From Octopus vulgaris (Eukaryota), in NCBI GenBank assembly GCA_951406725.2, contig OX597818.1:85746001-85810000 (forward strand): a stretch of 64,000 bases of DNA, in the 5' to 3' direction. Below the pieces are notes generated by a model that was given only the letters and a program-made list of their open reading frames with translations, searched no databases and was not told the DNA's origin. This document shows, one piece after another, positions 42,512-42,973 of the stretch; the stretch's first letter is position 1, and every line of letters begins with the position of its first letter. The translations under genes and the position numbers were made by a program.

Positions 42512-42973
42512 CAGGGTCGGATTAAGACCCATCGAGGCCCTAAGCACTTAAAAGATTTTGGTGCCCCCATAAAGGCTTATGTAATTCAAAATTTAAACAA
42601 TAACAAACCATAAAATAAATTTTTATTTTTCAAAATGAAACAAAACATTAAGAGGGAAAATAATGTTTATTTTTGTATACTTCCACTTCATTAATAGAGG
42701 ACTGTGCCAGAAAACCCTTATTTTTGCTGTTCCAAGCAATCAAAGTTTTCTCCTACATTTTAGAATTGCAAAGTCTTTGCTCAGATCCTCAAAATTAATC
42801 TTAGGTAACACATCTGCATCTATACTTAGAAATAAAGGCATCCTGAATATTATTTTAGCAACTTTAAAGTGATTTCTTTTGTACCATAAACCATTTACCA
42901 TTTCTGTGGTGCCCCTCCTTCCCTTGATGCCCTAAGCACGTGCTTATTTTATTTAATGGTTAATCCAGCGCTG
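42512..42973 (-). mobile_element. Non-autonomous hAT element (462 bp) with a transposase C-terminal remnant and a captured plexin exon fragment
   Basis: Perfect 8-bp TSD GTCTTCTC (42504-42511 / 42974-42981); TIRs CAGGGTCGGATTAA / TTAATCCAGCGCTG (11/14 match); minus strand ~42740-42832 reads FLSIDADVLPKINFEDLSKDFAILKCRRKL*, resembling hAT dimerization-domain ends. Confidence 0.9.

What the first reader, a model, noticed from the sequence alone, without database searches (positions are those of the whole stretch)
42512..42973. hAT transposon carrying a captured piece of its own host gene's exon
Inside a TSD- and TIR-bounded hAT deletion derivative, 42698-42743 is a 45/46 match to 45767-45812: the acceptor AG plus the first 44 nt of plexin exon 8, 3 kb downstream in the same orientation. 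The fragment abuts the transposase remnant, sharing TCAA with its minus-strand stop codon, a possible microhomology. This fits templated filler capture during gap repair, as known for Ac/Ds and Pack-type elements in plants. Here it is seen at the donor locus in an animal. Match and boundaries are seen; the mechanism is inference.
Basis: partly seen in the sequence, partly recalled or inferred. Interest (0 to 1): 0.78.

Follow-up and report, generated by a model that had tools for sequence, protein, structure and literature searches.

The report
Exon scrap patched into resident transposon
One copy of a common small transposon, lying in an intron of a plexin gene, holds a 46-base copy of the start of the next exon, likely pasted in when a DNA break was repaired from nearby sequence, an ordinary accident already described in many animals.

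Summary
42512-42973 is one copy of a ~426-bp non-autonomous hAT-type family (8-bp TSD; 2,941 first-look candidates). It carries a 45/46 copy of the acceptor AG plus 44 nt of the next plexin exon, 3.07 kb downstream. The 46-mer was found only at these two places, and 0 of 142 other copies examined carry it or another traceable local single-copy insert. Contigs of two runs from different studies hold junction sequence, so an artefact is unlikely. Two corrections. TCAA is not a microhomology: only AA is shared, and the stop codon is made by the insert. The event is also not new for animals: it matches the single-copy Pack-TIRs of Tan et al. 2021 (hAT commonest, donor usually under 5 kb away, 2-bp microhomology, small mid-element gap), which they assign to transposition-independent gap filling; it is only shorter than their 100-bp cut-off. 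The break is the element's best match to the donor's pyrimidine tract (10/13), which mildly favours an intron-containing template. No effect on splicing was seen in one probable RNA run. Low interest.

The parts
42504..42511 (+). left target-site duplication GTCTTCTC
   Evidence: perfect duplications peak at 8 bp in the family (22 of 65 copies with both ends, none at 7 or 9)
42512..42973 (.). non-autonomous hAT-type element (MITE-like), member of a ~426-bp family; 4.0% from the family majority outside the break
42512..42525 (+). left terminal inverted repeat, imperfect
42960..42973 (-). right terminal inverted repeat, imperfect
42684..42696 (+). element sequence left of the break; family majority matches the donor intron's last 13 nt before the acceptor G at 10/13 (this copy 8/13, by eye, after two private changes at 42689 and 42693)
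42697..42743 (+). insert: one G, then 45/46 copy of acceptor AG plus 44 nt of exon; replaces 5 bp of the element; G>A change at 42709 (CpG type, would be Gly>Arg); 42742-42743 AA shared with the element
42743..42913 (-). remnant of a transposase C-terminus, cut short by the insert
   Evidence: indirect hAT link: phmmer hit P0005 (E 1.8e-4) carries Dimer_Tnp_hAT (E 2.5e-31); the remnant itself has no Pfam hit
42974..42981 (+). right target-site duplication GTCTTCTC
45767..45812 (+). donor: acceptor AG and first 44 nt of the plexin exon 45769-45915
33255..33321 (+). upstream plexin exon; ends in CCAG, so the AG of the insert also fits spliced mRNA

Best explanation
A copy of a common 426-bp hAT-type element lies in a plexin intron and holds a single-copy 46-base duplicate of the next exon's start, likely written in when a break in the middle of the already resident element was repaired by a brief template switch to DNA 3 kb away. 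Shown: the element, its family, the insert, loss of 5 bp, AA shared at the right junction, single copy. Inferred: one broken end paired with the donor through short imperfect similarity (T-rich element sequence against the intron's pyrimidine tract on the left, AA on the right), about 45 nt were copied with a 2-nt slip (TAG to TAGAG), and the strand rejoined the other end; no transposase needed; the insert has since decayed neutrally. It works like a small single-copy Pack-TIR.
For: 0 of 29 first aligned copies and 0 of 142 surveyed copies carry it; only two places in the genome. Gap 5-7 bp of 426 (1.2-1.6%), at 185/426, against a median gap of 4.6% and internal bias in Tan et al.. Donor 3.07 kb away in cis; 2-bp microhomology equals their median. 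The break is the only one of 413 element positions with at least 10/13 identity to the donor's intron end; random pairs 0.0005. One CpG-type, amino-acid-changing mismatch fits decay in the insert. Junction contigs in X2 and X3.
Against: Timing is not shown: 1 change in 46 fits any age up to that of the element (P of at most 1 change = 0.45 at 4%), and no outgroup with the empty element was demonstrated. The 13-nt window was chosen after looking, and the match rests on the family majority; this copy has two private changes there (3 and 1 of 135 other copies share them singly, none both). The left junction needs a 2-nt slip. My attempt to measure a background of such inserts outside this family failed.
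Confidence: 0.72

Rival explanations
1. RNA-templated patch: the break was filled by reverse-copying the plexin transcript (spliced or unspliced), like a class 2 templated sequence insertion.
For: Insert is in the same transcription unit and strand as its donor and starts at the exon boundary; its AG also matches the end of the upstream exon; small deletion, short microhomology and one extra base are the class 2 features (PMC5110952 passages).
Against: The match does not extend into the upstream exon (G where mRNA has C). Ending within 2 nt of a boundary has about a 10% chance once an exon is hit. The 10/13 match to the intron end disfavours spliced mRNA, though not pre-mRNA.
Confidence: 0.13
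2. Transposition-dependent capture: the element excised, and abortive gap repair from the sister chromatid picked up filler (Ac/Ds, P-element type), or capture happened during a local hop.
For: Insert age cannot be separated from element age; the family was once very active; filler from nearby is expected in this model too (Tan et al. introduction).
Against: Only 5-7 bp lost, mid-element, whereas excision repair predicts larger deletions near the ends; no second copy; no comparable filler in 142 copies.
Confidence: 0.12
3. Assembly or polishing artefact.
For: No raw reads were available; only short-read contigs were laid, none spanning the whole insert, and the right-junction contigs have 30 letters on the short side, one below the tool's 31-letter rule.
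Against: X3 (organism B, study P3) has contigs 42663-42727 (1 difference) and 42714-42803 (0) at depth 46-48, like single-copy flank (39-74); X2 (organism A, study P2) has 42714-42812 (2 differences). They start exactly 30 letters before the junction, as 31-mer contigs should. At most one study can be the assembly's source. The insert differs from the donor.
Confidence: 0.03

Closest known systems
Single-copy Pack-TIRs of animals (Tan et al. 2021, PMC8277862; read: parts 1-2 of 10, sections 10 and 14, search passages; supplements not read)
   Same: Non-TE host sequence inside one TIR element; hAT; single copy; donor in cis under 5 kb; 2-bp microhomology; small internal gap; exonic source; they also describe one copied from its own gene (H2BC15, intronic source).
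   Different: 46 bp, below their 100-bp cut-off (median 224 bp); starts at a splice acceptor; timing against an outgroup not shown; the words octopus and mollus- do not occur in their main text.
Class 2 templated sequence insertion polymorphisms (PMC5110952; passages only)
   Same: Break patched by a copied fragment, donor intact, microdeletion, microhomology, extra base, no TSD or poly(A) at the insert.
   Different: Those come from distant sites and are argued to be RNA-derived; this donor is 3 kb away.
Ac/Ds filler capture, Pack-MULE and Pack-CACTA (recalled, plus Tan et al. introduction)
   Same: Host fragment inside a TIR element.
   Different: Pack-MULEs are often multicopy with unlinked donors; this one shows no later movement and almost no deletion.
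Polymerase theta end joining and MMBIR templated insertions (search listing only; otherwise recalled)
   Same: Deletion-insertion scar with short microhomology and locally templated sequence.
   Different: The enzyme cannot be told from one scar.

Membership tests
hAT non-autonomous element | 8-bp target-site duplication | tested here: met
   perfect here; family 22 of 65 perfect and 27 of 65 at 7/8, no perfect ones at 7 or 9 bp
hAT non-autonomous element | short terminal inverted repeats | tested here: met
   14-bp imperfect TIRs starting CAG
hAT non-autonomous element | hAT transposase ancestry | tested here: inconclusive
   no direct Pfam hit; one of 9 phmmer hits carries Dimer_Tnp_hAT above cut-off and one below; Atlas hits uninformative; no autonomous copy identified among the copies examined
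single-copy Pack-TIR (Tan 2021) | non-TE sequence flanked by both halves of one TIR element with termini intact | tested here: met
single-copy Pack-TIR (Tan 2021) | unique parental copy at 90% or more identity, not a segmental duplication | tested here: met
   two places only, 98%; flanks of the two places unlike
single-copy Pack-TIR (Tan 2021) | internal sequence 100-5000 bp (pipeline cut-off) | tested here: not met
   46 bp; cut-off. So it works like one but would not be in their catalogue
single-copy Pack-TIR (Tan 2021) | cis donor, microhomology, small internal gap | tested here: met
   3.07 kb; AA; 5-7 bp at 0.43
single-copy Pack-TIR (Tan 2021) | insert-free orthologous element in an outgroup | tested here: inconclusive
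multicopy Pack-TIR / Pack-MULE | chimera transposed to several sites with distinct TSDs | tested here: not met
class 2 TSIP | RNA-derived template | tested here: inconclusive
   AG fits both templates; no upstream-exon letters beyond it

The most novel reading that the evidence does not exclude
The insert put a duplicate splice acceptor into the plexin intron, and with the element's own AG|GTAACA donor-like site at 42804 it forms a 105-nt stop-containing poison exon that tunes plexin levels in some tissues; or the patch was copied in cis from the gene's own unspliced transcript.
Probability: 0.08. Interest if true: 0.55.

Novelty: new member of a known kind. Interest (0 to 1): 0.2.

Why it matters
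As it stands it is one clean example, in a lineage probably not covered by the published survey, of a known repair scar, and it shows that such captures occur below the usual 100-bp cut-off. The family gives an exact pre-insertion sequence, which makes the junctions readable. It would matter more only if the duplicate acceptor changes plexin splicing or if RNA templating were shown.

Tried and rejected
TCAA microhomology: rejected. Moved chimera: not found. Family-wide capture: 143 distinct copies, 58,675 element bases, 119 near full length (3 duplicate loci skipped, other duplicates merged; 100 copies newly fetched from the 150 hits with about 4.4 kb flanks; the 29 copies have only 1.5 kb flanks and were picked by best score, so are biased against inserts). 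Inserts of 12 bp or more in 12 other copies and 10 gap segments were other repeats, internal duplications, or unassigned (17 bp in L065; 13, 46 and 285 bp in L070; 3.4 kb in L115); none matched local single-copy DNA. L050 looked like a second capture but is an element with its own inverted ends. Background control: 12 local pairs in 1.01 Mb, 7 candidate events besides this one and a tandem array; the 3 checked genome-wide were all high-copy repeats, 4 unchecked, so no background rate. No RNA holder listed on record; probable RNA run X15 showed only the spliced mRNA over the insert, and contigs drop rare forms. One search was swamped by family copies. X10 gave no cover. A local source for the left junction letters at 42646-42655 was noticed by eye and not tested. 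Earlier scan notes: two look-ups, nothing. Four paper searches listed nothing on this locus; PMC13282606 passages hold no 'captur'. Supplements were not read and could list comparable cases.

Full report
Observation. The element runs 42512-42973 between perfect 8-bp duplications, with 14-bp imperfect inverted ends. 42698-42743 matches 45767-45812 at 45 of 46, same strand. The donor is the acceptor AG and first 44 nt of an exon of the plexin cytoplasmic domain (Pfam). A genome search with the 91 nt around the insert returned two places only, the insert and the exon; that search skips very common words, but both known places were found. The genome is 2.8 Gb in 227 contigs; that it is probably an octopus is my recalled guess, named by no call.

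The element. It belongs to a family of about 426 bp with 2,941 first-look candidates. This copy is 4.0% from the family majority outside the break (median of copies 5.6%), so it is an ordinary, old copy. Eight-bp duplications are the family rule. A minus-strand frame resembles a transposase C-terminus; the link to hAT is indirect, through one phmmer hit that carries the hAT dimerisation domain.

The junctions. Against the majority of 29 copies, 5 bp (TTTGA) are replaced by 45 bp, with AA at 42742-42743 fitting both element and donor. On the left the sequence reads TA, G, AG, GAC. Genomic donor is TAG GAC, so a 2-nt slip explains it; spliced mRNA is CCAG GAC, which needs one untemplated G. The 13 nt of family majority left of the break match the donor's intron end at 10 of 13, the only such site of 413 in the element. 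This may explain both where the switch happened and why the insert begins at an acceptor. It is post hoc, and this copy has two private changes in that stretch, so it is modest evidence for a template that still held the intron.

Is it real. No raw reads were offered; contigs were laid. X3 has contigs over the left (42663-42727, 1 difference) and right (42714-42803, none) junctions at single-copy-like depth; X2, another study and label, has the right junction (42714-42812, 2 differences). The short sides are 30-31 letters, at or one below the tool's bridging rule, as expected for 31-mer contigs broken by 34 letters shared with the exon. X10 gave no cover and no positive control. The one mismatch is CpG-type and would change Gly to Arg, so it most likely arose in the insert (inference).

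Is it a habit of the family. In 142 other copies no insert traceable to local single-copy DNA was found; inserts were other repeats, internal duplications or a few unassigned pieces. That is about 5% of the family, so rare events are not excluded. A control for such inserts outside the family failed, because the three candidates checked were repeats.

Mechanism. Best reading (0.72): a break in the middle of the resident element, a brief switch to DNA 3 kb away guided by short similarity, about 45 nt copied, and rejoining; no transposase. The tiny central gap argues against repair after excision (0.12). RNA templating (0.13) is not excluded, above all from unspliced transcript. Timing is open: one change in 46 fits any age up to the element's own.

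Consequence. The insert offers AG acceptors at 42697 and 42699 with a weaker pyrimidine tract (0.65 against 0.80-0.95 at three real acceptors) and a donor-like site at 42804; the 105-nt exon would contain stops. The single probable RNA run laid showed only normal splicing, which cannot exclude a rare or degraded form.

Known. Tan et al. 2021 (PMC8277862) found 370 Pack-TIRs in 100 animals, 208 hAT, about two per 10,000 elements, 56.9% within 15 kb of the donor and mostly under 5 kb, median microhomology 2 bp, median gap 4.6%, 13.4% exonic, and assigned single-copy cases to transposition-independent gap filling. This case fits every feature I could test except the 100-bp cut-off, so it works like one without strictly entering their catalogue; the outgroup test was inconclusive.

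Verdict. Real, neatly readable, known kind. Interest 0.2.

Noticed in passing
L050 (G000:C10:16622000-16629000), 2653-3040 and 4438-4828: A 391-bp element with its own inverted ends occurs twice, 99% alike and about 1.4 kb apart; one copy is nested in a SINE-like repeat inside the hAT element. Possibly a recent local hop.
   Followed up: partly
L040 and L078 (G000:C30, about 4.021 and 4.192 Mb): Two family copies 170 kb apart share a tandem amplification of the same 215-bp internal segment (4-5 units).
   Followed up: partly
L078:3917-4223 minus strand: A 298-bp insert belongs to a young high-copy repeat, 97-98% alike, 690 first-look candidates.
   Followed up: yes
L115 (G000:C4:111141600-111150600): A 3.4-kb insert in a family copy has broken frames that look by eye like an LTR retrotransposon polyprotein (label recalled, not tested).
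   Followed up: no
L070 (G000:C19:56958800-56967800): A second small element with inverted ends and an apparent 8-bp duplication is nested in a family copy (seen by eye).
   Followed up: no
window 42646-42655: CATTAAGAGG, made by a private change at 42648, resembles the left junction letters 42689-42700 with a 2-nt gap; could be a second, very local template or chance.
   Followed up: no
window 46307-46375: Three tandem 19-bp units inside what looks like another short repeat element.
   Followed up: no
L106 (G000:C2:151331500-151340500), 443-473 and 853-883: A perfect 31-bp direct duplicate 410 bp apart; one copy lies in a high-copy repeat, the other is wedged between two repeats. A possible further local templated patch, unresolved.
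   Followed up: partly
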